DNA from: a virus
Lineage: Duplodnaviria; Caudoviricetes
Length of the DNA: 64,000 bases
Reading direction: 5' to 3' (one strand)
IMG/VR virus record: IMGVR_UViG_3300031853_000001
Span: 96,001-160,000 of that record
A program made the translations under genes and the position numbers. Below are positions 9,580-36,565 of this stretch, piece after piece. The number at the start of each line of letters is the position of its first letter. The first letter of the stretch is position 1. The notes under the pieces were generated by a model. It had not been told where the DNA came from. It saw only the letters and a list, made by a program, of their open reading frames with translations, and did not search any database.

Positions 9580-9682
9580 TAGGCACAAACAGCAATTTTC
9601 TTTATTTAAGTATTGAGAAATTGTAGTATGTTGAACGGTCAAATATTAGAAACCATAGCTATTAAGCAAAACGAGTGCCTAG
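9580..9682 (+). ncRNA. ACAGCAA-stem element 1
   Basis: TAGGCAC..ACAGCAA ... GTGCCTA-G terminal stem. Confidence 0.65.
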
Positions 9683-9903: not shown

Positions 9904-10031
9904 TAGTCGCTCACAGCAATCGTTCTTTATAGAACATATGGGTTCGAATCCCATACCACGCACCAAATCGCGTAGTTAGCCAAATGGTTTAGGCAGATGT
10001 CTAACAAACATCCTTCTATTAAAGCGACTAG
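9904..10031 (+). ncRNA. ACAGCAA-stem element 2 containing a circularly permuted tRNA (anticodon loop CT AAC AA)
   Basis: TAGTCGCT/AGCGACTA stem. Inside, in order: variable arm, T arm (ATGGG-TTCGAAT-CCCAT), ACCACGC-ACCA, linker, GCGTAGT, D arm, GATGT-CTAACAA-ACATC. Confidence 0.8.
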
Positions 10032-18060: not shown

Positions 18061-18136
18061 AATTCTGCTATAATAATATTGTAAAAAAGAAAAGCCCTAG
18101 TCCAGGGCTGACCAAATGAAAAGGAGATTTAAAATT

Positions 18137-19756
18137 ATGACTAATTTCAATCAGGTAGTTTCTAATTTTGTTGCTTCTCAGAATTCTTACCCTGTTCGTA
18201 AGAATATTAGCAAGGCTCACGCTTCTTCCTTTATCAATGCGATGAAGCAAGAGGATAACTTCAAGTATACCGAAAATGGTGCGGTAGCCAAGAAGTCTAC
18301 TATGTCCAAGCTATACGACCTATTTGCACTTGGCGGCTCCTATCGTTCTCGCACCGAGAGCGATTGTATCGTTCTTTTTAAGAACGCATATCAGGAGAAC
18401 CCTGCCTATGCTCTAAAGTGCCTATGGTATCTTCGTGATATTCTTGAGGGTCAGGGTGAGCGTCGTTTCTTCCGTGTTTGCTTAAAGTGGCTTGCTACCT
18501 ACGACAAGCAGGCTGTACTACGCAACCTTGATACCATTGCCCGTGATGGTTTCGGCCGCTGGGATGATCTGTTTGTCCTATTTGACACTCCTTGCGAGGA
18601 TGCTGTTATGAAGCTGATTGAAAATCAGCTAGTTAGCGACCTAAAGGCGTATCAGGCCGGTGCCGCAGTATCTCTACTTGGCAAGTGGATTCCTTCCGAG
18701 AACTCCTCTTCTGCCAAGACTAAGCATAATGCTCGTCGCATTATTGCTGCTCTTCACGTATCTCCTCGTGAGTATCGTAAGACTCTATCTGCTCTGCGTG
18801 AGCGTATCCACGTTGTAGAGCGTCTTATGTCCCAGAACCGTTGGGACGAGATTGATTTCTCTCATCTACCTTCTCGTGCTGGCCTGATCTATCGCAAGGC
18901 TTTCGAGCGTCGCGATATGATTCAGCAGAAGTATCGTGAGTTCGCGAAGGATACTTCTACCAAGGTAAATGCTGGTAAGCTATATCCTTACGACGTTGTG
19001 CGTGAGGCACAGAAGGTTATGCACTGTGATTCCTACTGGAATTATGGTTCTCGCGAACCTCGCCTAGACGACACCCAGCGTCTAATGGTTAATAAGTATT
19101 GGGATAACCTACGTAATGTTTTCCCTGCGGGTGAAAACTTTAACGCTATGGTTGTTTGCGATACTTCTAGCTCTATGCTAAATGGAGCAAGCAATACTGC
19201 TTCTCCTATGCAGGTTGCGGTATCTCTGGCAATGTATGCCGCAGAGCGTGCCAACGGTCCTTTCAAGAACCATTATATCAGTTTCAGCCGTCAGGCTCGT
19301 CTGGTAGAGGTTTTTGGTGCGGACTTCTGCGACAAGGTATCTCGTATCATCCGCTCCAATGTGTGCGAGAATACCAATCTTGAAAGTGTTTTCGACCTAG
19401 TGCTAAATACTGCTATGCAGTATCGCCTACCTCGTAACGCTATGCCTAAGACTCTTGTAGTCGTGTCCGATATGGAAGTAGATCGTTCTGCGGGTATTTC
19501 CAGTCATAAGGAAACCTTTATGGAGTCTATGCGTCGTAAGTGGGCTCAGAAGTGCGGCAACCGCTATGAGTTCCCTGACGTAGTGTTCTGGAATGTGTCT
19601 GCTCGCAACGATACTTTCCTAGACGATCCTAAGAGTGGCATTACTTACGTGTCTGGCTGCAGTCCTGTACTGTTTGAGCAGATTCTGTCTGGTAAGACGT
19701 CTATTGACCTTATGCTAGACAAGCTTAACGCTCCTCGCTACAAAGACATCTACTAA
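18137..19756 (+). CDS. DUF2828-family helical-repeat + vWA protein (Ro60/TROVE-like architecture)
   Basis: TENGA..KST, LRDI..GQGERR, GRWDDL, LLGKWIPSE, LYPYDVV, MIDAS motif VCDTSSSM, VSDME, VFWNV. Own promoter; start at ATG 18137 after AAGGAG; strongly biased codons. Confidence 0.8.
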   Translation: MTNFNQVVSNFVASQNSYPVRKNISKAHASSFINAMKQEDNFKYTENGAVAKKSTMSKLYDLFALGGSYRSRTESDCIVLFKNAYQENPAYALKCLWYLRDILEGQGERRFFRVCLKWLATYDKQAVLRNLDTIARDGFGRWDDLFVLFDTPCEDAVMKLIENQLVSDLKAYQAGAAVSLLGKWIPSENSSSAKTKHNARRIIAALHVSPREYRKTLSALRERIHVVERLMSQNRWDEIDFSHLPSRAGLIYRKAFERRDMIQQKYREFAKDTSTKVNAGKLYPYDVVREAQKVMHCDSYWNYGSREPRLDDTQRLMVNKYWDNLRNVFPAGENFNAMVVCDTSSSMLNGASNTASPMQVAVSLAMYAAERANGPFKNHYISFSRQARLVEVFGADFCDKVSRIIRSNVCENTNLESVFDLVLNTAMQYRLPRNAMPKTLVVVSDMEVDRSAGISSHKETFMESMRRKWAQKCGNRYEFPDVVFWNVSARNDTFLDDPKSGITYVSGCSPVLFEQILSGKTSIDLMLDKLNAPRYKDIY

Positions 19757-19851
19757 GGTTAAGTATAAATTTGAGATGGAGAAATCCATCTCTTTTTTAT
19801 TTGACTTATTATAAAAATTTTGATATAATATTTATAGAAAGGATGAGGAAA

Positions 19852-20208
19852 ATGAACTATTACATTTATTTGGATGATGTGCGCGAAGATGATACTTGGT
19901 TTCGACAGCATTTGAATACCGAGCATTGGATTCCTTGTGTTGTTCGTTCTTATGAGGAAGTAATTCATATTCTTGACCATATGCAAGATTATATGGACAA
20001 GGATGAAGTGCTTATTCTCGACCTTGATCACGACCTTGGCGAAACTGAAGATGGTTACAATGAACTCGCGCACACAGGATATGATGTTTGTAAGTGGATG
20101 ATAGAAAATCATTTCCCTGCCTGCTATTTTCACATTCATAGCATGAACGCTAGTGGTTCTGCGAATATGCGACAACTTCTTACTCACTATGGCTATAAGG
20201 AGATTTAA
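19852..20208 (+). CDS. Cyclic-phosphate-processing receiver-like domain protein
   Basis: IYLDDVR...DLDHDLGE...TGYDVCKWM...IHSMNASG. Confidence 0.75.
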   Translation: MNYYIYLDDVREDDTWFRQHLNTEHWIPCVVRSYEEVIHILDHMQDYMDKDEVLILDLDHDLGETEDGYNELAHTGYDVCKWMIENHFPACYFHIHSMNASGSANMRQLLTHYGYKEI

Positions 20209-20408
20209 TATGCTTTTAGATGAAAATAATGATAAAGAAAAGCTTTATAAAATTATTGATTTTCTAATAGAACAAATTAAAAATCTGCAAAGAACTAATT
20301 CTGAAATAAATGAACTTTTGAAAGAATCAATTTTTAGAAAATAATTTCTTGACTTTCTCCAAAAATTCTGATATAATTATTATAGTAAAAGGAAAGGAGA
20401 ATAACATA

Positions 20409-20654
20409 GTGGAAAAGTACAGACCTATTTATAGAGATATTCACGATTGGGCAATTTTGGACGAACGAACTATTCATGATTTTTCTGAAAACGAAACTCC
20501 TATTCACGTGGTAGAAGTTCTTATTGGAACTCTTCATTATGAGCATATAGATTTTAATCAGCATTATACTGAACATCGCACTCCTATTATTCGTTGGCTA
20601 ACTCGTAATGAATATGATTATCTTTGCGCGAATGAAGGCACCGTAATTTGGTAA
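20409..20654 (+). CDS. Hypothetical protein
   Basis: GTG start after AAGGAG, downstream of promoter 20349. Confidence 0.5.
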   Translation: MEKYRPIYRDIHDWAILDERTIHDFSENETPIHVVEVLIGTLHYEHIDFNQHYTEHRTPIIRWLTRNEYDYLCANEGTVIW

Positions 20655-20667
20655 GAAAGGATTAAAT

Positions 20668-21318
20668 ATGCGTAAGTACGAAAAAATTGAAACTCTATTT
20701 GCCCGCGATATGGAAGGCACTAAAAAGCTAATGCCGGGTATTTTTCGTGACCCGACTATTGAGTTTCTTCAGTATTGTGATTGGGTATGGACTGAGAAGA
20801 TAGACGGCACTAATATCCGCGTGTATTGGGATGGCCATAAGGTTACTTTTAGTGGCCGTACCGATAACGCAGTTATTCCCGCAGAACTTATCACTCGTCT
20901 AAATGAACTTTTTAGCGGTGAGACTAATGCTCAAATTTTTGAGCAGGCTTTTGGCGATAAGGAAGTTATTCTATTCGGTGAGGGCTATGGTCGTAAAATT
21001 CAGAAGGGCGGTGGCAAGTATATTGCCGATGGCGTTGATTTTATTCTATTTGACGTTCTAATTGGTGAGAATTATCAAGAACGTGAATGGGTTGAAAGCA
21101 CCGCCAAGATGTTTGGTATTAAGGTCGTCCCAATTGTGGGTGGCGGTTCGCTTGAAGACGCTGTAAATTATGTTAAGAAGCACCCTAATTCGATAATTGC
21201 GGAAGATGTACGAGAAATGGAAGGTATTGTATGTAGACCCGCTGTTGAGCTACGTGACCGTCGTGGTAATCGTATTATTGTAAAAATTAAGTGGGAAGAT
21301 ATAAAGGAGCTTATTTAA
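20668..21318 (+). CDS. ATP-dependent RNA ligase (Rnl2-like nucleotidyltransferase)
   Basis: Motif I TEKIDGTN, ILFGEGYG, FILFDV, EGIVCRP, IVKIK. Confidence 0.8.
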   Translation: MRKYEKIETLFARDMEGTKKLMPGIFRDPTIEFLQYCDWVWTEKIDGTNIRVYWDGHKVTFSGRTDNAVIPAELITRLNELFSGETNAQIFEQAFGDKEVILFGEGYGRKIQKGGGKYIADGVDFILFDVLIGENYQEREWVESTAKMFGIKVVPIVGGGSLEDAVNYVKKHPNSIIAEDVREMEGIVCRPAVELRDRRGNRIIVKIKWEDIKELI

Positions 21319-21590: not shown

Positions 21591-21663
21591 TGCGGAGTGG
21601 CCAAGTAGTTAAGGCAATTGGCTCATACCCAATAGATCAAGAGTGCAAATCTCTTCTCCGCAA
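21591..21663 (+). tRNA. tRNA-Met/Ile2(CAT), no encoded CCA
   Basis: ATTGG-CT CAT AC-CCAAT; TGCGGAG/CTCCGCA; T-loop TGCAAAT. Confidence 0.8.
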
Positions 21664-26311: not shown

Positions 26312-26379
26312 AGGCGGACACAGCAAATAACTATTTAAGCAATAATCTTTTAAATTATGTAGCTAAAATAACCGCCTAG
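26312..26379 (+). ncRNA. ACAGCAA-stem element 3 carrying a Lys(TTT)-like anticodon stem-loop
   Basis: AGGCGG..ACAGCAA ... ATAAT-CTTTTAA-ATTAT ... CCGCCT-AG. Confidence 0.7.
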
Positions 26380-27795: not shown

Positions 27796-28356
27796 ATGCC
27801 AAGGAAAATTGATTTAACAGGAAAAATTTTTGGAATCATACAGGTAGATTCGCCAGCACCAAGTCAATCTGGTAAAACGTATTGGAATTGTCATTGTACA
27901 ATTTGTAATACTAAAAAAGTAATTCAAGGTTGCGCCTTAAAAAATGGTTCTATTAAAACTTGCGGTTGTGGTTGTTCTTTTCATAAACAAAATACTTCAA
28001 AAATTTGTGAAATTTGTGGAAAAGAATTTATTCCAATAAAATTTGGCGGTGCTAGAAAATATTGTTATGAATGTTCTCCGCAAGAAGGCTCAGAAACAGA
28101 TAAGCGCACAGTTATAAGACGAGCTTTAAAAAAGATGCTAGTTGATTATAAAGGTGGAAAATGTGAACGATGTGGATATAATAAATGTTTACGCGCATTA
28201 GAATTTCATCATTTAAATCCGTCTGAAAAAGATTTTGGAATTTCTGGATGTATAACTAAAAATGTAGAAGAATTAAAAAATGAAGTTAATAAATGTATTT
28301 TAGTTTGTTCTAATTGTCACGCGGAAATTCATGAAGAATTAGACGAGGCCCGTTAG
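27796..28356 (+). CDS. HNH homing endonuclease; stop codon lies inside tRNA-Asn
   Basis: CERCG...ALEFHHL...CILVCSNCH. Confidence 0.85.
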   Translation: MPRKIDLTGKIFGIIQVDSPAPSQSGKTYWNCHCTICNTKKVIQGCALKNGSIKTCGCGCSFHKQNTSKICEICGKEFIPIKFGGARKYCYECSPQEGSETDKRTVIRRALKKMLVDYKGGKCERCGYNKCLRALEFHHLNPSEKDFGISGCITKNVEELKNEVNKCILVCSNCHAEIHEELDEAR

Positions 28357-29538: not shown

Positions 29539-29657
29539 TAGACTCAAACAGCAATATTTTACTTGCATGTGGGGCCGGAAGTATTGGTTTAACTCCAGTT
29601 CTCTCCACCACATGGAGAGATAGTGTAACGATAGCACGCCGTATAGTATGAGTCTAG
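29539..29657 (+). ncRNA. ACAGCAA-stem element 4 containing a circularly permuted tRNA
   Basis: TAGACTCA/TGAGTCTA stem; T arm ATTGG-TTTAACT-CCAGT, TCTCTCC-ACCA, CAT linker, GGAGAGA, D arm GTGT-AACGATA-GCAC. Confidence 0.8.
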
Positions 29658-29662
29658 TATAT

Positions 29663-30215
29663 CGGGTTGTAGCGCAGTTTGGTAGCGCGCCTCGCTTGGG
29701 AAAAGCGATTTGTGCTTAATTATTATGTTAGACATTACTCAACAAAAAGGAACGATTACAGAATTACGATGTATTTTAGATTTAACTAATTTGGGAATAC
29801 GATGTTTAGTTCCTGTAGATGAAAGTTCTAAATATGATGTAGTAGCAGATTTAAATGGTACTTTTATTAGAATTCAATGTAAAACAGCTTGTTGGGCTAA
29901 AGATACCGTTCAAGAAAAAGTAGCCTTTGAAATAGATACTTGTCGAAGTACAACAAATACTAAAACTACTACTCATTATAAGTATTCTGCTAATGAAATT
30001 GATTATTTTTATACATGGTTTGAAGGACAAGGTTACTTAGTCTCCATTAAAGAAGCAAAAGGTTTAACTTTTAGATGGCGATATGAATATCCTTCTACCA
30101 ATCAAAAACAAGGTATTCATATCGCAGAATTATATAAGACTGAGGAGGTTTTAAAAGCACTCTAAAATTTTCCTGGACGAGGAGGCCGCAGGTTCAAATC
30201 CTGCCTGCCCGACCA
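29663..30215 (+). tRNA. tRNA-Pro(TGG) split by a ~476-nt endonuclease-coding insertion (29699-30174 in the 35/36 register)
   Basis: 5' half CGGGTTG..CCTCG-CTTG; 3' half GGA-CGAGG..GGTTCAAATCC..CCCG-ACCA. Confidence 0.85.
29725..30165 (+). CDS. PD-(D/E)XK homing endonuclease (I-Ssp6803I-like family)
   Basis: KGTITE...YDVVAD...RIQCKT...Y...EIDYF. Confidence 0.8.
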   Translation: MLDITQQKGTITELRCILDLTNLGIRCLVPVDESSKYDVVADLNGTFIRIQCKTACWAKDTVQEKVAFEIDTCRSTTNTKTTTHYKYSANEIDYFYTWFEGQGYLVSIKEAKGLTFRWRYEYPSTNQKQGIHIAELYKTEEVLKAL

Positions 30216-30326
30216 TAATCAACTGGGTTTGAAGGTTATCCCATTTGAAAAACCTTCCCCTTTCTTTCTTGACTTTTTCTAAAAATTTTGATATAATAAA
30301 TATATCAAAGGAAAGGAAATAAAAAG

Positions 30327-30554
30327 ATGGATAAGAAAGAACTTTCTACTAATGCGGCAAAAGCAGAATTTGTAAAGTCTATTCATAATTGGCTTATGCG
30401 AACTTTAGAGCAAAACAATAAATCTGAATATAAAGATTGTTTTACTGTTGAAGGTTCTAGTATTATGTGCCAACTGCCGCAAGACTACTTTAATTCATGT
30501 AGTATTCCAGCGAACACTAAGATTGAAATGAAGTTTATTTCTAAGAAATCATAA
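30327..30554 (+). CDS. Hypothetical protein
   Basis: Own promoter and RBS. Confidence 0.6.
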   Translation: MDKKELSTNAAKAEFVKSIHNWLMRTLEQNNKSEYKDCFTVEGSSIMCQLPQDYFNSCSIPANTKIEMKFISKKS

Positions 30555-30558
30555 CTAA

Positions 30559-30651
30559 TAAGCCTTTACTGCAATTACTTAAATGGTTAAATTATTTTGC
30601 TTGAATACAAAATGAGAGAAGGTTCGAGCCCTTCACAATTAAAAGGCTTAG
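30559..30651 (+). ncRNA. ACTGCAA-stem element 5: tRNA-like body in normal order, with the element stem in place of the acceptor end
   Basis: TAAGCCTTT/AAAGGCTTA; D-loop-like AAATGGTTAA; ATTTTG-CTTGAATA-CAAAAT; GAAGG-TTCGAGC-CCTTC. Confidence 0.7.
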
Positions 30652-30666
30652 CAAAGTTAGAAACTA

Positions 30667-30733
30667 AAGGCACAAGCAGCAACAAGACGTTTTAATAATT
30701 TGATAGTGGATTAAATTTATTGAGTGTGCCTTG
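30667..30733 (+). ncRNA. GCAGCAA-stem element 6
   Basis: AAGGCACA-A-GCAGCAA ... TGTGCCTT-G with an internal hairpin. Confidence 0.65.
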
Positions 30734-30741
30734 ATTATTAA

Positions 30742-30818
30742 GTCGGTTTAGCTTAGCTGGTTAAAGCACTCGCCTTGTAAGCGAGAGACCTTCGGTCCGA
30801 ATCCGAAAACCGGCTCCA
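30742..30818 (+). tRNA. tRNA-Thr(TGT)
   Basis: CTCGC-CT TGT AA-GCGAG; TCCA. Confidence 0.9.
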
Positions 30819-30839
30819 TCTAAAAGAAGGAGTATTAAA

Positions 30840-31286
30840 ATGGGACTTTTTAATCGGTCTAAAAAAGAGCCTACAAAACAATATATTCCACCTGAGCAGC
30901 CTAAAAAATGCGAGCATAAATTTCAAGATTTTCCTTGGTATATAGAAGGAGAAGAAAATGAAGGTAATGTATATGGTTGTAACTCTTGGTATCATCTAGT
31001 AATTAAAGAACCTTATGTTTGTATTTATTGTGGCGAAAGATATGATAAAATATTGTGGGAAATAAGACGATATGGCTCTCATAAAGAAGCAATGCAGGCT
31101 CTAGATGATGTTAATGAAAAATTTAAAGACCGAATAAGACATCGCGCAGAAATTGAAGATATGATAAATGATATGCAATTAGTCGATCCTCAATATTTAC
31201 AATATTATCATATGCTTCAGGGAACAAAAGACCCATCTACTTCTCGATTATATGAGCAAGAAATTAAACCAAAATTAAAAACTTAA
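30840..31286 (+). CDS. Hypothetical protein
   Basis: RBS AAGGAG; CEH and CIYC motifs. Confidence 0.6.
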   Translation: MGLFNRSKKEPTKQYIPPEQPKKCEHKFQDFPWYIEGEENEGNVYGCNSWYHLVIKEPYVCIYCGERYDKILWEIRRYGSHKEAMQALDDVNEKFKDRIRHRAEIEDMINDMQLVDPQYLQYYHMLQGTKDPSTSRLYEQEIKPKLKT

Positions 31287-31289
31287 TTT

Positions 31290-31409
31290 TATGCGGTCAC
31301 AGCAATTTTAGATTTAATCTAAGTGTCATCGGTTCGATTCCGATTATTCCAGCCATTTAATTTGGAGTGTAGCTCAATTGGTAGAGCATTAGAATTATAA
31401 ACCGCATAG
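31290..31409 (+). ncRNA. ACAGCAA-stem element 7 containing a circularly permuted tRNA opened at the anticodon loop
   Basis: TATGCGGT/ACCGCATA; TCTAA-GTGTC-ATCGG TTCGATT CCGAT-TATTCCA-GCCA; linker; TGGAGTG-TA-GCTC AATTGGTA GAGC-A-TTAGA. Confidence 0.85.
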
Positions 31410-31420
31410 TACGATATTTA

Positions 31421-31489
31421 AGACGCTTACAGCAATTTAATACAGTCGCACACATAAATAATTACATGACTAAGTAATAGAGCGTCGCG
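31421..31489 (+). ncRNA. ACAGCAA-stem element 8
   Basis: GACGCT-T-ACAGCAA ... AGCGTC. Confidence 0.6.
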
Positions 31490-31509
31490 TTTTTATTTGA
31501 GGAATTAAA

Positions 31510-31944
31510 ATGAAGTTATATACATCTTATTTCGCGCAATTAAGGAATTTTCCACCAAATCTTGTTGGGCTTTCAACTGCAATTTGGAATCCCAAATGGT
31601 TGAATCCTGGCCGCGATAAAAATGGAGCAATTTGGTTAGATATTCCGCCACTTAAACCTGGGAAGGAGTGCGATGGATTATGTAATGGGAAGTGTGCTCC
31701 AAAACATCCTAATGATTGTGATTTTCTTAAAGTATATCGTAAGCAACTTGATAGGATAGATTTTAAGATGTTTATTGAACATTTAGAAACTCTTGCTAAA
31801 ACTATTCAACTTGGCGAAAATTTAGACGAAGTTAATTTTGCCTTTCTTGTTTATGAAAAGTATGATAATCCTTGTAGTGAACGCGCAATAATTCAACAAT
31901 GGTTTAAGGATAATGGAATGGAGATTGAAGAATGGAAGAAATAA
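31510..31944 (+). CDS. DUF488-like protein
   Basis: MKLYTSYFA start, L.P, Y..QL, LVYEK...CSER..I..W. Confidence 0.55.
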   Translation: MKLYTSYFAQLRNFPPNLVGLSTAIWNPKWLNPGRDKNGAIWLDIPPLKPGKECDGLCNGKCAPKHPNDCDFLKVYRKQLDRIDFKMFIEHLETLAKTIQLGENLDEVNFAFLVYEKYDNPCSERAIIQQWFKDNGMEIEEWKK

Positions 31945-32264
31945 ATAATTATGATTGGCTTCATTATATTCCACAGGGTTGGAAAGAAATTGGCCGACAA
32001 ATGATTCAAGAGTGCGAAGCAATTGACCCAACTTACTGCATTTGCGATTTAAAAGAAAAATGGGGAACCCTTGATGTAATCGCAAATTGTGATATGACTT
32101 ATTGGCGTGAAATAGATATGATTGAAAATAAGTATGAAAAATTAAGTGCAAGAACTTGTTGTTCCTGCGGCCAACCCGCTACAAAATATTCTACTGGATG
32201 GATTCTTCCTTGGTGTGATAAATGCGGCGATATGGATGAAAAGTTTTATAAGAGGTTTGAATAA
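31932..32264 (+). CDS. Hypothetical phage protein (KEKWG.L..TC..CG family)
   Basis: PQGW, KEKWGTL, zinc-finger C-terminus. Confidence 0.65.
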   Translation: MEEINNYDWLHYIPQGWKEIGRQMIQECEAIDPTYCICDLKEKWGTLDVIANCDMTYWREIDMIENKYEKLSARTCCSCGQPATKYSTGWILPWCDKCGDMDEKFYKRFE

Positions 32265-32360
32265 GGCGGGTTAAGCCTAATTTGGTAAGGCAGGAGATTG
32301 CTAATCTCTGAGTAATCGGTGTATACCGGTGTTTCGGTTCAAGTCCGAAACCCGTCGCCA
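32265..32360 (+). tRNA. tRNA-Ser(GCT)
   Basis: GGAGA-TT GCT AA-TCTCT; long variable arm; GCCA. Confidence 0.9.
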
Positions 32361-32362
32361 AT

Positions 32363-32520
32363 TGTGGACTGTTGGCTTAGAAGCAGCCATTCAGCTAAGG
32401 AGTTCTTAATTTCTCTATTAGTGCGAAATGTATTGTGGGCTACATTTGTTATAATGCCCCACGAGTATGATGTGCAAATAGGTAATAGGAATATAAGATT
32501 TGGCGTAATAGCACACCACA
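32363..32520 (+). ncRNA. 23S rRNA H43/H44 (L11-binding GTPase centre) mimic with an internal insertion
   Basis: TGTTGGCTTAGAAGCAGCCAT..TAAGGA ... GCGTAATAGCACAC, closed by TGTGG/CCACA. Confidence 0.8.
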
Positions 32521-32651
32521 AATATTGAGCTGGCCAGAGTAGCGTGCAGAAAGCTCATTAAACACGGGGTTACTACATAGACTTGCCCACGCCTCTTAAC
32601 AATGCGTACCTTGGAGAGCGCGTGTTCCGCGACGTTTAACTGCGGATTTAT

Positions 32652-32726
32652 GCGGGTGTAGTTCAACGGCTCGAATACTTGGCTTCCACCCAGGAGATGA
32701 GGTTTCGACTACCTCTACTCGCACCA
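32652..32726 (+). tRNA. tRNA-Gly(TCC)
   Basis: CTTGG-CT TCC AC-CCAGG; ACCA. Confidence 0.9.
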
Positions 32727-32729
32727 TAT

Positions 32730-32806
32730 AGGGAATTAGCGTAATGGTAGCGCCGCGGGCTTTGAACCCGTCTGTTGTAAAGGTTCGATTCCTTTATTCC
32801 CTGCCA
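32730..32806 (+). tRNA. tRNA-Gln(TTG)
   Basis: GCGGG-CT TTG AA-CCCGT; GCCA. Confidence 0.9.
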
Positions 32807-32879
32807 ACCCAGATAGCATTAGGGTTTTCGGTGCGATAAACTTGCTATCGGTTTGCACCTGTTTTAAGGAGATTATATT

Positions 32880-33443
32880 ATGAAACGAGGAACAGATCAT
32901 TCTTGGGAAGTGCGTAAATATTTAGGAGACATAGCTTGGTATGCACATTGTAAATGTGGGTTTGAATATGCTTGCTCAAAAAGTAAAAGAAATAATGATG
33001 GGACTTGGTCCGTTGAGCAAGAAATAGATTGGCTTGCCCATTATTGCCCAAATTGTGGTGCTCGCAAGAAATGGTATAATCTTGAAATAATTAAAATAAA
33101 TAAACATAAGTTCTAGGAGGTTAATCGGATGAACAAAGATATTTTAGATTTTATTAACAGGAGATTTCCTATTACCGATGAAGATAATGACAATTGGATG
33201 ACAACCAATTGTTATTACTTCGCCCGCATTTTAAAAACAAGATTCAAAGGTGAAATTTGGTATGACTTGGTTGATGGTCATTTTCTCTTCCGTCGCGGCG
33301 ATTACTTTTTTGATTGGACTGGGGTTAGATTAGAATATGATTTAAATAAGCCCGAAACGGTTGATAATCTAGTCAAGTGGTCTGATTATAAAAAGGTTGA
33401 CCCTGTGCATTATGATAGAATTGTAAGAGATGTAATTAATTAA
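32880..33443 (+). CDS. Two hypothetical ORFs (32880-33116 zinc ribbon; 33129-33443)
   Basis: RBSs; CKCG/CPNCG; NCYYFA..L...GH motif. Confidence 0.6.
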
Positions 33444-33457
33444 AGAGGATTAAAATT

Positions 33458-33703
33458 ATGAGTAGATTTCTAAGAAATATTAATGATTTAGACGCTTTTC
33501 GCGCGGCCGTAAGACAGTGTAAGGGAGATGTAATTCTTCGCAGCACTGATGGGGTGGAAGAGTTTAATTTAAAGAGTAAGCTATCGGAATTTATTGCTTT
33601 GGGTAAGTTAGCAGATACTCATGGCGATGAATATGAAATTTTTTGTATGGATAGAGCAGATGAAGCAGTTTTATTAAAGTATTTTTATGATAGAGATCAT
33701 TAA
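33458..33703 (+). CDS. HPr-fold-like small protein
   Basis: F..AV..CKGDVIL....NLKSKLS pattern resembles the HPr Ser46 region; no His15. Confidence 0.5.
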   Translation: MSRFLRNINDLDAFRAAVRQCKGDVILRSTDGVEEFNLKSKLSEFIALGKLADTHGDEYEIFCMDRADEAVLLKYFYDRDH

Positions 33704-33711
33704 TTAGTATA

Positions 33712-33739
33712 AAACCCGCGAAAGCGGGTTTATTTTTTT
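33712..33739 (+). terminator. Rho-independent terminator
   Basis: AAACCCGC-GAAA-GCGGGTTT + T tract. Confidence 0.8.
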
Positions 33740-33757
33740 AGGTGGAGGTGGGAAAAA

Positions 33758-36565
33758 ATGAGTAAAAGTTTTAATTTTGCAAATTTTGGTAATTTATATT
33801 ATTACCCAGGATTTAAACAAGATTTCTTTTATTTTAATAGTTTACTTTCTAATTATGAAAGAAATCCACCAAATTTAGCTTATGTAAAATATGCTCAAGG
33901 AATTGGACAAACAGCTGTCTCAGAATTATCTAATATCCCTGGAATAGGTTTGGAACAAAAAAATCAAGATGATTTTTTAATAGATCAAATTTCTCAAATC
34001 TTACAAATTCTTAATGCAGCTATTGTTCAAGAAAAAGAAAATGAAATAAAATTTGTAGATGATAAAATTGCTATGCTAAAAAATAATATAGATCCTAAAT
34101 ATTATAGAAAAAATCAAGATTTAGCTGCAATTGAGCATTTTTTACTTCAATTAAAAACTGAAGATGGTGAAATTAATTATGACGCTTTAATTCCATTATT
34201 AAATATTGTTGAACAAGGATTTGAAAATTCTAAAGAAATATTTAATTTTGAACAAAAACATTTAGAAGATTTAGATAATGCTGTAAAAAATAATAAACAA
34301 GCTTTAGAAAATCAAATTCGTGGGTTGTTAAAAACTGACAAATACCGTAATAAATCTGCTGAAGAACAAGAAGAAATATTAAACCGCTCTTTAAAGAAAA
34401 GAGACAAATTGAGAGTAGAATCTTATTTAAAACAATCTCATTTAACAAATGTTCCTAGTTTTAAAAAATATATGGCAAATATGACAACAGCAGATTATAA
34501 AATTGCCAATTGGATTTCAGAACAAATTCAAAATGTTTTAGATAATAATTACAGTACTTGGGCTACACTATTACAAAATAGCGGATTTACAAAAAATGGA
34601 TATAAAACCGTCGCTGAAAATATTAAAGAAAAACTTATTAGCTCCGTTTCTGCTTTTGCTGCAGAACATCAAGCAGAAATTCTTACTGACGGTTTAAAAA
34701 CATTGGATTTAAACAGTTTTTGTAATGATTTAATAAATGACTTTAATATAAGTCTTGGAACTAAAATTAGTAATGTACCAGATGATTTTGGATTAAAAGA
34801 AAATCATTTAAAGTTATTTGAACAAGCTATTGAAGCAAATAGTGATACTTATTATTCTGCTGAAGGAATTTATCAAGCATTAGAAGAAATAATGGGGAAA
34901 ATGAAAAGAAAAAACAGTTCTTCATACTCTCCAGAAGAACAATTAATTGACGGTCTTATTGGTAAAAATACTGTAACAAATTTTTATGATGATACTATTG
35001 AGCCCATTAATAAAATTATTAAACAAATGGAGCAACTTATTGAATTAGAAAAAAATAATAAAGCTTCAATAGTTTTACAAAGAAATAATGAAACTAAAAC
35101 TATTGAAGCAGCAATTACTATAGACGGTAATACTATTACTCAAAATTTTAGTCAAGCTTTCTCTTCTGCGGGACTAAAATTATACCAAAAAAAGAATTAT
35201 ATTCCAGCAAGTTTATCTTCTATAGTAACTAATATGAAAAGAGCTGCAGGAAAAAAAATACGCGATGAAATTGTAAGAATAATTACTTCAAGGCCCGCAC
35301 AAGCACGAAAAGATTTACAAACTGATATGGCGCATGCTTTACAACAAATTCATGTTGAAATAAAAGGGCCAGAAGTTTCAGAAATACTTCAAGGTTTTGA
35401 CAAAACTTGGTCAACAAAAATTTGGACTGGTCGAACAAATGTAAAAAATGACGTAATTGAAATTGTCGTAGGCATGCCAAATGGTCAAGAAACAAGTATG
35501 ATAGTAAATAATCTTTTAGAAGGAAATATCAATGCGATAAATAAACCTGCTTATATTAAAAAATTTTTTCAAGGCTATTCAGAAGTTTTTAAAGATTTTC
35601 AATCTCAATTTGAACAAGCAATTACTAACGATATGATTCAGACAAGAAATGCACAAGAATATACCGATTACGACAAAATGGCTGAAAGATTTTTTAAAAC
35701 TCAAGAAATCAAAAATGAAATGATTAAAAAAATTAATGAATTATATGGACAATATAAAGAAGAATTAACCAAACAAATAAAAGATGAAGAAAAAAGAGCA
35801 AAAAGTATTGATAATATCGAACGCGCTGCAGAAAGATTTATCCAATCTATTAGAGATACTCTTTATGTTAGTTCAACTATGAAAACTTATACAAATTATC
35901 AAAATGATCTTGGCTTTACAGGGGGTAGTTTAGGTTCTACAATAGATTCTCAAATCGAATCTTTTGACCAATTATTTACAGCTGCAGGAATGCCAATTGA
36001 AACAACACTAAAACGATGGTTAAAATTTGCTATTTTAAACTGTTCACCAGTTAGTGTAGTCGGAGAAAAAAATAAAGATTTTATTGAAAATTATTTAGGG
36101 GGATTAGCAGTATTTTCTTTATTTAATGAAGGAGGAGCAGAGTTAACTTTATTGCACCAACAATTACAAAATCAAGAATTAATAACCACAAATAATATTA
36201 TGCATCTTTATAGGTTAAATGGAATTTATTATCCTGGCTCTTATGTTTTAAAACAAGTTGTTGAAAATTTAAATATGGTAGTTACTCAAATTAATGAAGC
36301 TCAAGCTACAGTCGCAAGAAAAAATATTATGATTTATAACCCTGCATCTTTTGACGTTTTACCAAATGGAAAATTTTCTAATGGAAAATTTTCAAAAGGT
36401 TCAGGAAAAAATAAAATATTTAAAACACAAAATGAAACTAACCCTTGGAGCTATGTAGGGGAAAAAATTAATAGCCAAGTCCAAATAAAAGTTCTATTTT
36501 TAGCAGGTTTATTAGATGTGGTTAAAAATTTACATAAACAAATGGAATTTGAATTACCACAATAA
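33758..36565 (+). CDS. Large hypothetical protein (935 aa)
   Basis: Long ORF, helical and Asn/Lys-rich; no motif recognised. Confidence 0.75.
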   Translation: MSKSFNFANFGNLYYYPGFKQDFFYFNSLLSNYERNPPNLAYVKYAQGIGQTAVSELSNIPGIGLEQKNQDDFLIDQISQILQILNAAIVQEKENEIKFVDDKIAMLKNNIDPKYYRKNQDLAAIEHFLLQLKTEDGEINYDALIPLLNIVEQGFENSKEIFNFEQKHLEDLDNAVKNNKQALENQIRGLLKTDKYRNKSAEEQEEILNRSLKKRDKLRVESYLKQSHLTNVPSFKKYMANMTTADYKIANWISEQIQNVLDNNYSTWATLLQNSGFTKNGYKTVAENIKEKLISSVSAFAAEHQAEILTDGLKTLDLNSFCNDLINDFNISLGTKISNVPDDFGLKENHLKLFEQAIEANSDTYYSAEGIYQALEEIMGKMKRKNSSSYSPEEQLIDGLIGKNTVTNFYDDTIEPINKIIKQMEQLIELEKNNKASIVLQRNNETKTIEAAITIDGNTITQNFSQAFSSAGLKLYQKKNYIPASLSSIVTNMKRAAGKKIRDEIVRIITSRPAQARKDLQTDMAHALQQIHVEIKGPEVSEILQGFDKTWSTKIWTGRTNVKNDVIEIVVGMPNGQETSMIVNNLLEGNINAINKPAYIKKFFQGYSEVFKDFQSQFEQAITNDMIQTRNAQEYTDYDKMAERFFKTQEIKNEMIKKINELYGQYKEELTKQIKDEEKRAKSIDNIERAAERFIQSIRDTLYVSSTMKTYTNYQNDLGFTGGSLGSTIDSQIESFDQLFTAAGMPIETTLKRWLKFAILNCSPVSVVGEKNKDFIENYLGGLAVFSLFNEGGAELTLLHQQLQNQELITTNNIMHLYRLNGIYYPGSYVLKQVVENLNMVVTQINEAQATVARKNIMIYNPASFDVLPNGKFSNGKFSKGSGKNKIFKTQNETNPWSYVGEKINSQVQIKVLFLAGLLDVVKNLHKQMEFELPQ

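What the first reader, a model, noticed from the sequence alone, without database searches (positions are those of the whole stretch)
31290..31409. Circularly permuted tRNA opened at the anticodon loop
Seen: the 3' half (anticodon-stem 3' strand TCTAA, variable loop, perfect T arm, TATTCCA-GCCA) precedes the 5' half (TGGAGTG, canonical D arm, TTAGA), joined by a 7-nt linker and clamped by the ACAGCAA stem. CCA is retained internally. Inference: either a YrlA-like tRNA mimic, or a precursor that ligation and trimming could convert into a real tRNA, as for algal and archaeal permuted tRNAs. The shape also mimics an anticodon-nicked tRNA, the substrate of RNA repair.
Basis: partly seen in the sequence, partly recalled or inferred. 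Interest (0 to 1): 0.8.

Follow-up and report, generated by a model that had tools for sequence, protein, structure and literature searches.

The report
Phage Y-like RNA with permuted tRNA
This 120-base phage RNA is a rearranged tRNA look-alike mounted on a conserved "handle"; it is most likely a partner RNA of the phage's own Ro60-like protein and not a tRNA in the making.

Summary
Window 31290-31409 (+) holds a tRNA whose 3' half comes before its 5' half. It has a canonical T arm and D arm and a 7-bp acceptor stem closed by GCCA plus a 7-nt linker. The clamp is the 8-bp stem TATGCGGT/ACCGCATA. ACAGCAA is not a stem but an unpaired, conserved motif just inside that clamp.

The fold is conserved. 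Among 48 distinct relatives, 92.9% of pair cells are paired, against 60.9% in shuffles, and 23 of 24 pairs change on both sides.

The clamp plus CAGCAA is a shared "handle". The window holds eight such modules, three of them with permuted tRNA shapes. In 80 loci chosen only for a DUF2828 gene, I counted 160 modules on the gene's strand and 7 on the other.

The phage has no TROVE Ro60. It does encode a DUF2828+DUF7788 (vWA) protein at 18116-19756, followed by cREC and RNA ligase genes. A profile comparison links this protein to Ro60 (94.8% probability).

My reading is a YrlA-like Y RNA with a different handle and a DUF2828 partner. The precursor-tRNA reading fails, because the "anticodon loop" is not conserved.

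Binding, RNA ends and function are untested. The scan has noted this family on many other genomes. I found it neither in Rfam nor in the papers I searched.

The parts
31290..31297 (+). Handle stem P1, 5' strand (TATGCGGT)
   Evidence: Pairs with 31401-31408. The P1 helix is 91.2% paired, and all 8 pairs change on both sides among 48 distinct sequences.
31298..31305 (+). Unpaired CA plus the conserved CAGCAA motif of the handle
   Evidence: CAGCAA is invariant in alignments A1, A5 and A6. An exact CAGCAA lies within 14 nt after P1 in 31 of 48 distinct matches to model R1 from DUF2828-selected loci. The model itself contains the motif, so this count leans towards it.
31308..31322 (+). Local hairpin TTAGA-TTTAA-TCTAA. 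Its 3' strand TCTAA is also the 3' strand of the tRNA-type anticodon stem.
   Evidence: The minimum-free-energy fold uses the local hairpin. A perfect local 5-bp partner is present in 12 of 27 members, against 1.7 expected. In the fixed register of A7 the local hairpin is only 49-61% paired, which is inconclusive.
31323..31344 (+). Variable loop GTGTC and T arm (ATCGG / TTCGATT / CCGAT)
   Evidence: The T helix is 99.6% paired, and 4 of 5 pairs change on both sides. Rfam YrlA aligns here.
31345..31369 (+). Acceptor stem TATTCCA/TGGAGTG, closed by G73-CCA (31352-55) and the linker TTTAATT (31356-62)
   Evidence: The helix is 89.0% paired, and 7 of 7 pairs change on both sides. NCCA is kept in both close clades but in only 21 of 48 rows of the wider set.
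31370..31388 (+). U8-A9, D arm (GCTC / AATTGGTA / GAGC) and A26
   Evidence: The D helix is 94.7% paired, and 4 of 4 pairs change on both sides.
31389..31400 (+). Anticodon-stem 5' strand TTAGA, then ATTATAA (a remnant that looks like an anticodon loop)
   Evidence: TTAGA pairs with TCTAA 31318-22. This long-range stem is 85.6% paired, and all 5 pairs change on both sides, although it was not part of the model. The stretch 31364-31400 is 31/37 identical to bases 2-38 of the phage's tRNA-Lys(UUU).
31401..31409 (+). Handle stem P1, 3' strand (ACCGCATA), plus the following G
   Evidence: See P1 above. G follows P1 in 93 of 142 distinct modules.
31422..31486 (+). Next handle module (GACGCT-TA-CAGCAA ... 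AGCGTC), without a tRNA-like insert
   Evidence: Found. Its start is conserved in relatives L002, L126, L127 and L138.
9904..10030 (+). Second handle RNA with a permuted tRNA shape (ACCA kept, and a full anticodon arm kept)
   Evidence: Model R1 scores it 40.4 bits.
29539..29656 (+). Third handle RNA with a permuted tRNA shape (ACCA kept)
   Evidence: Model R1 scores it 35.8 bits.
9580..9681 (+). Handle module without a tRNA shape
26312..26377 (+). Short handle module
30559..30650 (+). Handle module with the variant motif CTGCAA, a 9-bp P1 and a lone T arm
30667..30732 (+). Short handle module
18116..19756 (+). DUF2828 + DUF7788 (vWA) protein, Ro60-like; the proposed protein partner
   Evidence: Pfam gives PF11443 at 102.9 bits and PF25043 at 124 bits. 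hhalign to phage TROVE+vWA_Ro60 proteins gives 94.8% probability, E = 5.4e-8. The nearest named ESM Atlas clusters are TROVE families.
19771..20208 (+). cREC (cyclic-phosphate processing receiver) domain protein
   Evidence: Pfam PF20274, 67.4 bits.
20668..21318 (+). RNA ligase
   Evidence: Pfam PF09414, 66.6 bits.

Best explanation
The element is a small non-coding RNA of the Y-RNA kind, built from two modules.

Module 1 is a "handle": an 8-bp closing stem with an unpaired ACAGCAA just inside its 5' strand. Seven other small RNAs in the same tRNA island share this handle. I infer that it is the binding site for the phage's Ro60-like ring protein (DUF2828 + vWA, window 18116-19756).

Module 2 is a complete tRNA body: elbow, D arm, T arm, a 7-bp acceptor and an anticodon-type stem. 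Its acceptor end is joined by GCCA plus 7 bases, and its anticodon side is opened and attached to the handle. I infer that this module serves as a bait or docking surface for proteins that recognise tRNA shape.

Because it has a 7-bp acceptor stem followed by NCCA, RNase P probably cuts before TGGAGTG and the 3' side is trimmed to CCA. That would leave a two-piece RNA held together by its helices, as was shown for Mycobacterium smegmatis YrlA.

Shown here: the sequence, the conserved fold, the shared handle, and the co-occurrence with DUF2828 on the same strand.

Inferred: protein binding, processing, and any role in RNA repair or counter-defence.
For: Fold
- In 51 matches from DUF2828-selected loci (48 distinct), 92.9% of cells are paired against 60.9% in shuffles. 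23 of 24 pairs change on both sides. Controls with the partner slid by 1-3 columns give 32-45%.
- The anticodon-type stem was not modelled, yet it is 85.6% paired.

Handle
- The window holds eight modules, all on the + strand between 9.5 and 31.5 kb.
- In 80 loci fetched only through the DUF2828 protein (1.30 Mb), there are 160 stem+CAGCAA modules on the gene's strand and 7 on the other strand. The 59 other letter orders of the motif average 10.5.
- 52 of the 80 loci hold at least one module.
- All 51 matches to model R1 lie on the DUF2828 strand.

Co-occurrence
- DUF2828 is present in 5 of 5 records chosen for holding modules.
- Among 5 other tRNA-bearing records, the 2 with DUF2828 both have full-length R1 matches. 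One lies about 400 nt upstream of the gene. Of the 3 records without DUF2828, one has a weak match.
- Handle RNAs sit directly beside the gene in L128 and L205, in Mycobacterium phage DirkDirk, and in Escherichia phage JH2.

Protein
- hhalign to TROVE+vWA_Ro60 gives 94.8% probability.
- The nearest named ESM Atlas clusters are TROVE families at score 0.92.
- GenBank annotators call homologues "Ro-like RNA binding protein".

Precedents in print (I read passages only)
- M. smegmatis YrlA is cut by RNase P and gains CCA in vivo (PMC4201824).
- Bas63 gp130 is Ro60-like in structure and counters the Ppl defence. The authors guess that some of its "tRNA genes" are Y RNAs (PMC11482910).

RNA libraries
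- Contigs from 4 ruminant metatranscriptome libraries cover the element.
Against: - No binding experiment exists for any DUF2828 protein with any handle RNA.
- In this genome the protein gene lies 11.5 kb upstream of the element, not beside it.
- The element always follows a 148-aa zinc-finger-type gene by 3-15 nt in its two close clades. A link to that gene, or to its mRNA, is therefore not excluded.
- The co-occurrence test has few negative genomes: 3, one of them with a weak match.
- The patterns demanded CAGCAA, and model R1 contains it, so counts of the motif lean towards it.
Sequence searches of the PDB found nothing. hhalign covers only the C-terminal 222 columns.
- The RNA-library contigs cannot show strand, ends or level, and may come from DNA in the library.
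- The Rfam YrlA score is far below the gathering score (30.4 against 69).
Confidence: 0.68

Rival explanations
1. It is a permuted tRNA gene. The transcript is cut at the acceptor linker, the handle is removed, and the phage RNA ligase joins the anticodon loop to give a decoding tRNA.
For: - CCA is encoded, and the acceptor stem is a perfect RNase P-type substrate.
- The 5' half runs into ATTATAA, a 7-base loop with U33 and A37. It is homologous to the tRNA-Lys loop (31/37 identity over bases 2-38).
- The phage has an RNA ligase and a cREC gene.
- Earlier notes on this genome describe tRNA genes split by tRNA-shaped inserts (I did not test this).
Against: - The loop segment changes its "anticodon" among close relatives (TAT, TTA, TAC). 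It loses the purine at position 37 in two of them. In the second clade it is 4-7 A-rich bases.
- Many family members close the acceptor with 3-6 bases and no CCA (27 of 48 rows).
- No back-joined or skipped form appears in the RNA-library contigs (table 5).
- The same handle carries inserts with no tRNA shape at all.
Confidence: 0.04
2. It is an mRNA punctuation or stability element. Sitting 3 nt after the stop codon of the 148-aa gene, the tRNA shape is cut by RNase P. This separates the two cistrons and leaves the upstream mRNA with a protective tRNA-like, CCA-ended 3' end.
For: - The element follows homologues of the 148-aa gene by 3-15 nt in both clades, even where the downstream gene differs (X21 contig).
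- No promoter-like or + strand terminator-like site lies next to it.
- NCCA is kept throughout these two clades.
Against: - It does not explain the conserved handle, or the seven other handle modules that stand next to other genes and tRNAs.
- It does not explain the genome-wide tie to DUF2828.
- More distant homologues of the 148-aa gene lack the element (L089-L091, L094-L096, L099) or are followed by ordinary tRNAs (L092, L097, L098).
- It could hold in addition to the best explanation.
Confidence: 0.1
3. It is a Y-like RNA, but its partner is not the phage DUF2828 protein. The partner would be a host Ro60 or another phage protein, such as the neighbouring 148-aa CHCC zinc-finger protein or the DUF488-like 144-aa protein.
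For: - The synteny 148-aa gene, RNA, 144-aa gene is conserved.
- Bacteroides thetaiotaomicron rings for TROVE in the control genomes, so gut hosts may carry Ro60.
- In one phage (L101/L119) a CAGCAA-bearing YrlA-like RNA lies just upstream of a true TROVE gene.
Against: - The two small genes stand side by side without the RNA in L096.
- Handle RNAs occur widely without them: L128, L205, L139, L172, JH2 and DirkDirk.
- The element lacks the GNCGAA/CGAA motif that TROVE Ro60 proteins are reported to bind (PMC4201824; PMC12135203; passages read).
Confidence: 0.12
4. It is a decaying relic of two adjacent tRNA genes (a dimeric-tRNA false positive), with no function.
For: - Chen et al. warn that tRNA dimers can score as YrlA.
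- About ten of the low-scoring R1 matches look like such junctions.
- The element reads as tRNA 27-76 + linker + 1-38.
Against: - Compensatory changes keep the acceptor pairing between the "two tRNAs", and keep P1. This holds across clades whose flanking protein is only 43-47% identical.
- ARAGORN and the Rfam tRNA model find no tRNA on either side of it.
Confidence: 0.02

Closest known systems
YrlA, the tRNA-like Y RNA of bacteria and mycobacteriophages bound by Ro60/Rsr (Rfam RF02553; Chen et al. 2014, PMC4201824, passages read)
   Same: - The order of parts is the same: the ends lie on the anticodon side, then T arm, closed acceptor-like stem and D arm.
- There is a 5'-3' closing stem with a conserved unpaired motif beside its 5' strand.
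- Several Y RNAs per genome share the protein-binding module while only some carry the tRNA shape (YrlA and YrlB).
- The M. smegmatis form has a 7-bp acceptor, is cut by RNase P and carries CCA.
   Different: - The motif is ACAGCAA, not GNCGAA(N)G.
- The score is 30.4 bits against the gathering score of 69, and only the tRNA-like part aligns.
- No TROVE gene is in the genome. The Ro60-like gene is of the DUF2828/DUF7788 type and lies 11.5 kb away.
- CCA is encoded rather than added.
- A second copy of the anticodon-stem 5' strand can form a competing local hairpin.
Bas63 (Felix O1-type coliphage) gp130, a Ro60-like protein that counters the Ppl defence (PhageMaP preprint, PMC11482910, passages read)
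   Same: The window's protein has homologues in Felix O1-type phages: 33% identity over 91% of its length in Escherichia phage JH2. In JH2, four handle modules lie among the tRNA genes just downstream of the gene, one with a permuted tRNA shape. The preprint itself guesses that some annotated tRNAs may be Y RNAs.
   Different: I did not compare gp130 itself, only JH2's homologue. The preprint, in the passages I read, names no RNA, no motif and no structure. Nothing shows that this rumen phage meets a Ppl-type defence.
Thermus phage phiLo Ro60 with Yrl1/Yrl2 (PMC12135203, passages read)
   Same: It is a phage-encoded ring protein with two small RNAs that have a 5'-3' stem flanking a bulge with a short conserved motif. 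Binding was shown by gel shift. With host PNPase the complex slows RNA decay.
   Different: The protein is a true TROVE Ro60, the motif is CGAA, and the passages I read describe no tRNA-like module.
Permuted tRNA genes of Cyanidioschyzon merolae and archaea (recalled; mentioned in the reviews listed, which I did not read)
   Same: The 3' half comes before the 5' half, CCA or a linker lies between the acceptor strands, and the ends meet on the anticodon side.
   Different: Those genes mature into decoding tRNAs with conserved anticodon loops, through a splicing endonuclease that is not known in bacteria or phages. Here the loop segment is not conserved.
Dictyostelid Class I RNAs (Rfam RF01414; Kjellin et al. 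2021, PMC7919456, passages read)
   Same: They have a short stem joining the 5' and 3' ends, a conserved 11-nt unpaired motif next to the 5' strand of the stem, and a variable rest. Earlier notes of this scan say the motif's letters resemble ACAGCAA. I recall the same, but I could not see the letters in the text (0 occurrences of CAGCAA; the logos are in figures).
   Different: RF01414 finds nothing in this genome at E <= 1. They are eukaryotic, with a different known protein partner (Rnp1A).

Membership tests
YrlA (Rfam RF02553) | tRNA-like module in permuted order (T arm, closed acceptor-like stem, D arm, enclosed by an anticodon-type stem) | tested here: met
   cmscan aligns model positions 23-87 to 31320-31393. 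All helices covary.
YrlA (Rfam RF02553) | Reaches the family's gathering score | tested here: not met
   30.4 bits against 69. Model positions 1-22 and 88-114 (the Ro-binding stem) do not align.
YrlA (Rfam RF02553) | GNCGAA(N)G / CGAA motif near the 5' end | tested here: not met
   The 5' region reads TATGCGGT-CA-CAGCAA-TT in the window and TAGGCACA-CA-CAGCAA-CTT in the second clade. There is no G.CGAA. The motif definition comes from PMC4201824.
YrlA (Rfam RF02553) | Encoded within about 4 kb of a TROVE Ro60 gene, on the same strand | tested here: not met
   PF05731 is absent from the 180.9-kb record, which CheckV rates 100% complete, and from two complete relatives. A DUF2828/DUF7788 gene lies 11.5 kb upstream on the same strand.
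Stem+CAGCAA 'handle' RNAs beside DUF2828 genes (defined in this scan; not found in print) | Closing stem of 6-9 bp, then 1-3 nt, then CAGCAA, then a variable insert, then the 3' strand, usually followed by G | tested here: met
   31290-31409 fits. 142 distinct modules occur in 80 DUF2828 loci, and G follows in 93 of the 142.
Stem+CAGCAA 'handle' RNAs beside DUF2828 genes (defined in this scan; not found in print) | Same genome and same strand as a DUF2828/DUF7788 gene | tested here: met
Stem+CAGCAA 'handle' RNAs beside DUF2828 genes (defined in this scan; not found in print) | The RNA is bound by the DUF2828 protein | not testable with these tools
   It needs RIP/CLIP or gel shift.
Permuted tRNA gene that matures into a decoding tRNA | Conserved 7-nt anticodon loop (U33, purine 37) and a stable anticodon among relatives | tested here: not met
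   Relatives have ATTATAA, ATTTATA, CTTTATA or ATTACAA, or 4-7 A-rich bases.
Permuted tRNA gene that matures into a decoding tRNA | A re-joined (circular or ligated) form exists as RNA | tested here: inconclusive
   No back-joint appears in contigs of 4 RNA libraries. Contigs drop rare forms, and no raw reads were available.
Two-piece (permuted) tmRNA | tRNA-like domain plus a tag reading frame; detected by ARAGORN or Rfam | tested here: not met
   ARAGORN finds no tmRNA. cyano_tmRNA scores 16 bits against 70. The element has a full D arm, and in the second clade the next gene starts 10-20 nt after P1.
Dictyostelid Class I RNA (RF01414) | Match to the covariance model | tested here: not met
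   No match in the genome at E <= 1. 150 of 199 candidates were scored.
Ro60 / TROVE + vWA proteins (for the proposed partner, 18116-19756) | Homology to the TROVE and Ro60-type vWA domains | tested here: inconclusive
   Pfam gives DUF2828 + DUF7788 and a weak VWA_2, not TROVE. hhalign to two phage TROVE+vWA_Ro60 proteins gives 94.8% probability, E = 5.4e-8, but only over the last 222 columns. The ESM Atlas neighbours are TROVE clusters at 0.92. PDB sequence searches are blank.

The most novel reading that the evidence does not exclude
Large phages with tRNA islands carry a second, undescribed kind of Ro-type ribonucleoprotein. A DUF2828/vWA ring protein is loaded by a universal stem+ACAGCAA handle with a set of interchangeable RNA "baits": whole permuted tRNAs, lone T arms, or unrelated inserts. 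In this phage the particle would work with the adjacent cREC and RNA ligase genes. It would either present tRNA shapes to tRNA-cutting host defences, or hold broken tRNAs for repair. The competing local hairpin would act as a switch that hides or shows the tRNA's anticodon stem.
Probability: 0.3. Interest if true: 0.85.

Novelty: new variant of a known kind. Interest (0 to 1): 0.62.

Why it matters
Ro60 and its Y RNAs are a long-studied RNA-surveillance particle, and the bacterial and phage forms are still poorly understood.

A relative of this phage's Ro60-like protein is reported to disarm a bacterial defence (Bas63 gp130 against Ppl). No partner RNA was named for it in the passages I read.

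This element and its seven siblings give concrete candidates for such partners:
- a short motif that can be mutated (the closing stem plus ACAGCAA);
- a tRNA-shaped module with predicted RNase P and CCA processing sites.

The same handle occurs in culturable phages: Escherichia phage JH2 and Mycobacterium phage DirkDirk. Binding, processing and the effect on defence can therefore be tested in laboratory strains.

The finding also marks a gap in annotation. ARAGORN calls none of the eight modules a tRNA or tmRNA, and Rfam finds no family for them at gathering scores.

Tried and rejected
Searches and tests that led nowhere or ruled something out
- A megablast of 30000-34000 against GenBank phages found nothing.
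- Pfam and PHROGs gave nothing for the 148-aa upstream protein. For the 144-aa downstream protein Pfam gave nothing and PHROGs one weak match to a family of unknown function. The ESM Atlas suggests the 144-aa protein is DUF488-N3a-like, which is a lead only.
- I first suspected the 148-aa protein as the partner, because the RNA follows its gene. I dropped this as the main reading when the handle turned up in many places without that gene.
- The idea that the element mimics tRNA-Lys specifically is weak. The close likeness to tRNA-Lys holds for the window's clade. By eye, the second clade's element does not resemble that clade's tRNA-Lys.
- The local hairpin could not be scored on alignment A7, because its 5' strand is not anchored there (49-61% paired). 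A register-free count was used instead.
- Promoter and terminator scans near the element were at or below chance.
- RNA-library contigs showed cover but no ends. One X22 contig runs into an Illumina adapter 6 letters after 31410 in a variant. This may mark a fragment end and is no more than a hint.
- A part of the stretch without cover in a run was not used as evidence.
- The shares of words under 0.2 were used only after laying four runs. The label \"ruminant gut\" rests on the run records.

Limits on claims of \"not in print\"
- The last, on 'CAGCAA', was uninformative because the hits were primers.
- I found no paper that describes the stem+CAGCAA RNAs. Subscription journals and supplements were not searched.
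- Supplementary Tables S1 and S2 of Chen et al. 2014 list phage YrlA RNAs and could hold some of these. I could not see them.
Full report
What is there

Window 31290-31409 (+) reads, in order:
- an 8-nt strand TATGCGGT;
- CA, then CAGCAA;
- a small hairpin TTAGA-TTTAA-TCTAA;
- a 5-nt variable loop;
- a canonical T arm;
- the acceptor 3' strand TATTCCA, then G-CCA;
- a 7-nt linker;
- the acceptor 5' strand TGGAGTG;
- U8-A9 and a canonical D arm;
- A26, a second TTAGA, then ATTATAA;
- ACCGCATA, which pairs with the first 8 nt.

The one error is that ACAGCAA is not a stem. ARAGORN does not call the element. The fold energy is better than all 200 shuffles. Rfam's YrlA model aligns the T arm, closed acceptor and D arm at 30.4 bits, well under its gathering score of 69. 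The window is part of a 180.9-kb IMG/VR phage record, rated complete by CheckV, that carries more than 20 tRNA genes, a ROOL RNA and a drum RNA.

Conservation

The element follows the stop codon of a 148-aa gene in relatives whose protein is only 43-47% identical. Between the two clades, compensatory changes appear in the clamp, the acceptor, the D stem and the anticodon-type stem.

I built covariance model R1 from 14 sequences. I searched it over 80 loci that had been fetched only through a protein, described below. It found 51 matches, all on one strand, and 48 of them full-length. On their alignment:
- 92.9% of 1116 pair cells are standard pairs, against 60.9% in shuffles and 32-45% when partners are slid;
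- 23 of 24 pairs show changes on both sides.

The alignment was fitted to the model, which favours these numbers. The long-range stem TTAGA(31389-93)/TCTAA(31318-22) was not in the model, yet it is 85.6% paired, and all five of its pairs change on both sides. About ten low-scoring matches look like junctions of two ordinary tRNAs, the false positive that Chen et al. describe.

The handle

Patterns that demanded CAGCAA upstream of a T arm recovered further clades from IMG/VR and metagenomes. In all of them CAGCAA sits 1-3 nt after the 5' strand of a closing stem, which the pattern did not demand.

The window itself holds eight such modules, all on the + strand and all within the tRNA island:
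- 9580-9681;
- 9904-10030;
- 26312-26377;
- 29539-29656;
- 30559-30650 (CTGCAA variant);
- 30667-30732;
- 31290-31409;
- 31422-31486.

Three carry permuted tRNA shapes with NCCA, one carries a lone T arm, and four carry unrelated AT-rich inserts. The stems differ in sequence but stay complementary. The stem plus ACAGCAA thus behaves like the shared protein-binding module of Y RNAs.

The protein

The phage has no TROVE gene, and neither do two complete relatives. Distant CAGCAA-bearing elements lie right after DUF2828+DUF7788 genes (L128, L205). One lies right before a true TROVE+vWA_Ro60 gene (L101/L119).

The window's own genome encodes DUF2828+DUF7788 at 18116-19756. A cREC gene (19771-20208) and an RNA ligase gene (20668-21318) follow it.

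Evidence that this protein is Ro60-like:
- A profile of this family aligns to two phage TROVE+vWA_Ro60 proteins with 94.8% probability (E = 5.4e-8) over 222 C-terminal columns.
- With its own families left out, its nearest named clusters in the ESM Atlas are TROVE families.
- GenBank annotators call mycobacteriophage homologues "Ro-like RNA binding protein".

The link between handle and protein

- In 80 loci fetched through the DUF2828 alignment alone (1.30 Mb), a strict module finder counts 160 modules on the gene's strand and 7 on the other. The 59 other orders of the six letters average 10.5, and the two highest are shifted readings of the same motif.
- 52 of the 80 loci have at least one module.
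- Five of five records picked for having modules carry DUF2828.
- Of five further tRNA-bearing records, the two with DUF2828 both have full-length R1 matches, one about 400 nt upstream of the gene. Of the three without it, one has a weak match. The negative set is small.
- In named phages the pattern holds. Mycobacterium phage DirkDirk has a handle RNA with a permuted tRNA shape (YrlA 39.8 bits) and a short module in the gap after its Ro-like gene. Escherichia phage JH2 (Felix O1 type) has four modules among the tRNAs after its homologue.

What it probably does

By analogy with Ro60 and Y RNAs, the handle would bind the ring protein and the tRNA body would recruit or distract proteins that read tRNA shape. 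The conserved bases are those of the tRNA core and elbow: U8, A14, G18-G19, A21, and the T loop GTTCRANYC. They are not those of any one tRNA identity.

With a 7-bp acceptor and NCCA, cleavage by RNase P and trimming to CCA are likely. This was shown for M. smegmatis YrlA, whose two halves stay bound to Rsr (PMC4201824, passages).

For relatives of the protein, one preprint reports that Bas63 gp130 counters the Ppl defence and guesses at Y RNAs among the tRNA genes (PMC11482910, passages). For a true phage Ro60, binding of CGAA-type RNAs and damping of host PNPase were shown (PMC12135203, passages). Aravind and colleagues place TROVE proteins, cREC and RNA ligases in phage RNA-repair systems (PMC7824862, passages). 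All functional steps for this element are inference.

Why it is not a tRNA in the making

- The segment that would become the anticodon loop varies in sequence, length and "anticodon" among close relatives.
- 27 of 48 rows in the wider family lack NCCA.
- The RNA-library contigs show no re-joined form.
- The same handle carries non-tRNA inserts.

The element does look like a slice of a head-to-tail tRNA dimer (27-76, linker, 1-38). Its 5' half is 31/37 identical to the phage's tRNA-Lys(UUU). That may be its origin.

Unexplained

TCTAA has two possible partners. Among 27 handle-bearing members, 22 have a perfect long-range partner, and 12 also have a perfect local one, against 1.7 expected. This could be a conformational switch, or it could be a trace of ancestry.

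Expression

Contigs from four ruminant metatranscriptome libraries cover the element, and some bridge the linker. Contigs cannot show strand, ends or level, and DNA may be present in such libraries.

Relation to earlier notes of this scan

I reached the handle, the eight modules and the DUF2828 link, before opening the earlier notes. Those notes report the same family on many other genomes (156 notes in at least 126 genomes under my search words), so this is not a first sighting within the scan. They gave me two leads.
- The PhageMaP preprint. I read passages and linked it through JH2.
- The likeness to dictyostelid Class I RNAs. Rfam RF01414 finds nothing here, and the paper's text does not print the motif letters.

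Notes on this same genome describe tRNA genes split by tRNA-shaped inserts and point to the same RNA ligase. I did not test them.

Verdict

The YrlA-like reading is supported as a way of working. Membership in Rfam YrlA fails on score, motif and TROVE neighbour. The best description is a new variant of the Y RNA kind: a different handle and a DUF2828 partner. It is already recurrent within this scan, and I did not find it in Rfam or in the papers searched.

Noticed in passing
window 30840-31286 (+): The 148-aa protein belongs to a family of about 98 clusters found only in uncultured phages. It has an invariant C-x-H ... C-x-x-C pattern and the motifs HKFQDFPWY, EPYVCIxCGxR and IEDMINDMxLVD. 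It has no Pfam or PHROG match. Its gene sits in tRNA islands and is followed by the handle RNA, by ordinary tRNAs, or by the DUF488-like gene.
   Followed up: partly
window 31510-31944 (+): The 144-aa protein (MKLYTSYFAQ...) has no Pfam match, but its nearest named ESM Atlas clusters are DUF488-N3a (score 0.91, 26 of 30 hits). It forms a conserved pair with the 148-aa gene, with or without the RNA between them.
   Followed up: partly
window 19771-21318 (+): A cREC (cyclic-phosphate processing receiver) gene and an RNA ligase gene (PF09414) directly follow the Ro60-like gene. Together they look like an RNA-repair operon just upstream of tRNA-Met at 21591.
   Followed up: partly
L015:3985-4280: In a related phage, the tRNA-Lys(UUU) gene carries an insert of about 150 nt in its anticodon loop. 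The same gene in L014, L019 and L020 is uninterrupted.
   Followed up: no
L107:1-337 (-): A phage contig with a tmRNA match (52.3 bits, cut at the contig end). Its T-arm region also carries an outer stem followed by CAGCAA.
   Followed up: no
L101:4316-4588 (-) = L119: Two tandem YrlA-like RNAs (37.4 and 35.6 bits) lie just upstream of a true TROVE+vWA_Ro60 gene. The first contains CAGCAA and is flanked by a 14-nt palindrome, TTAACAATTGTTAA, on both sides.
   Followed up: partly
window 31410 in run X22 (table 7): One RNA-library contig of a variant continues for 6 letters after position 31410 and then runs into Illumina adapter sequence. This may mark a defined fragment end just past the closing stem.
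   Followed up: no
L030:4300-4420 and L063 (rc) around 918: Two further permuted tRNA-like elements have sealed acceptors, no CCA and no CAGCAA. The L063 phage encodes a TROVE protein. The L030 record (36% complete) showed none.
   Followed up: partly
window 27796-28356 and 29710-30165 (+): An HNH endonuclease gene and a PD-(D/E)XK endonuclease gene (PF11645) lie between the tRNA and handle RNA genes.
   Followed up: no
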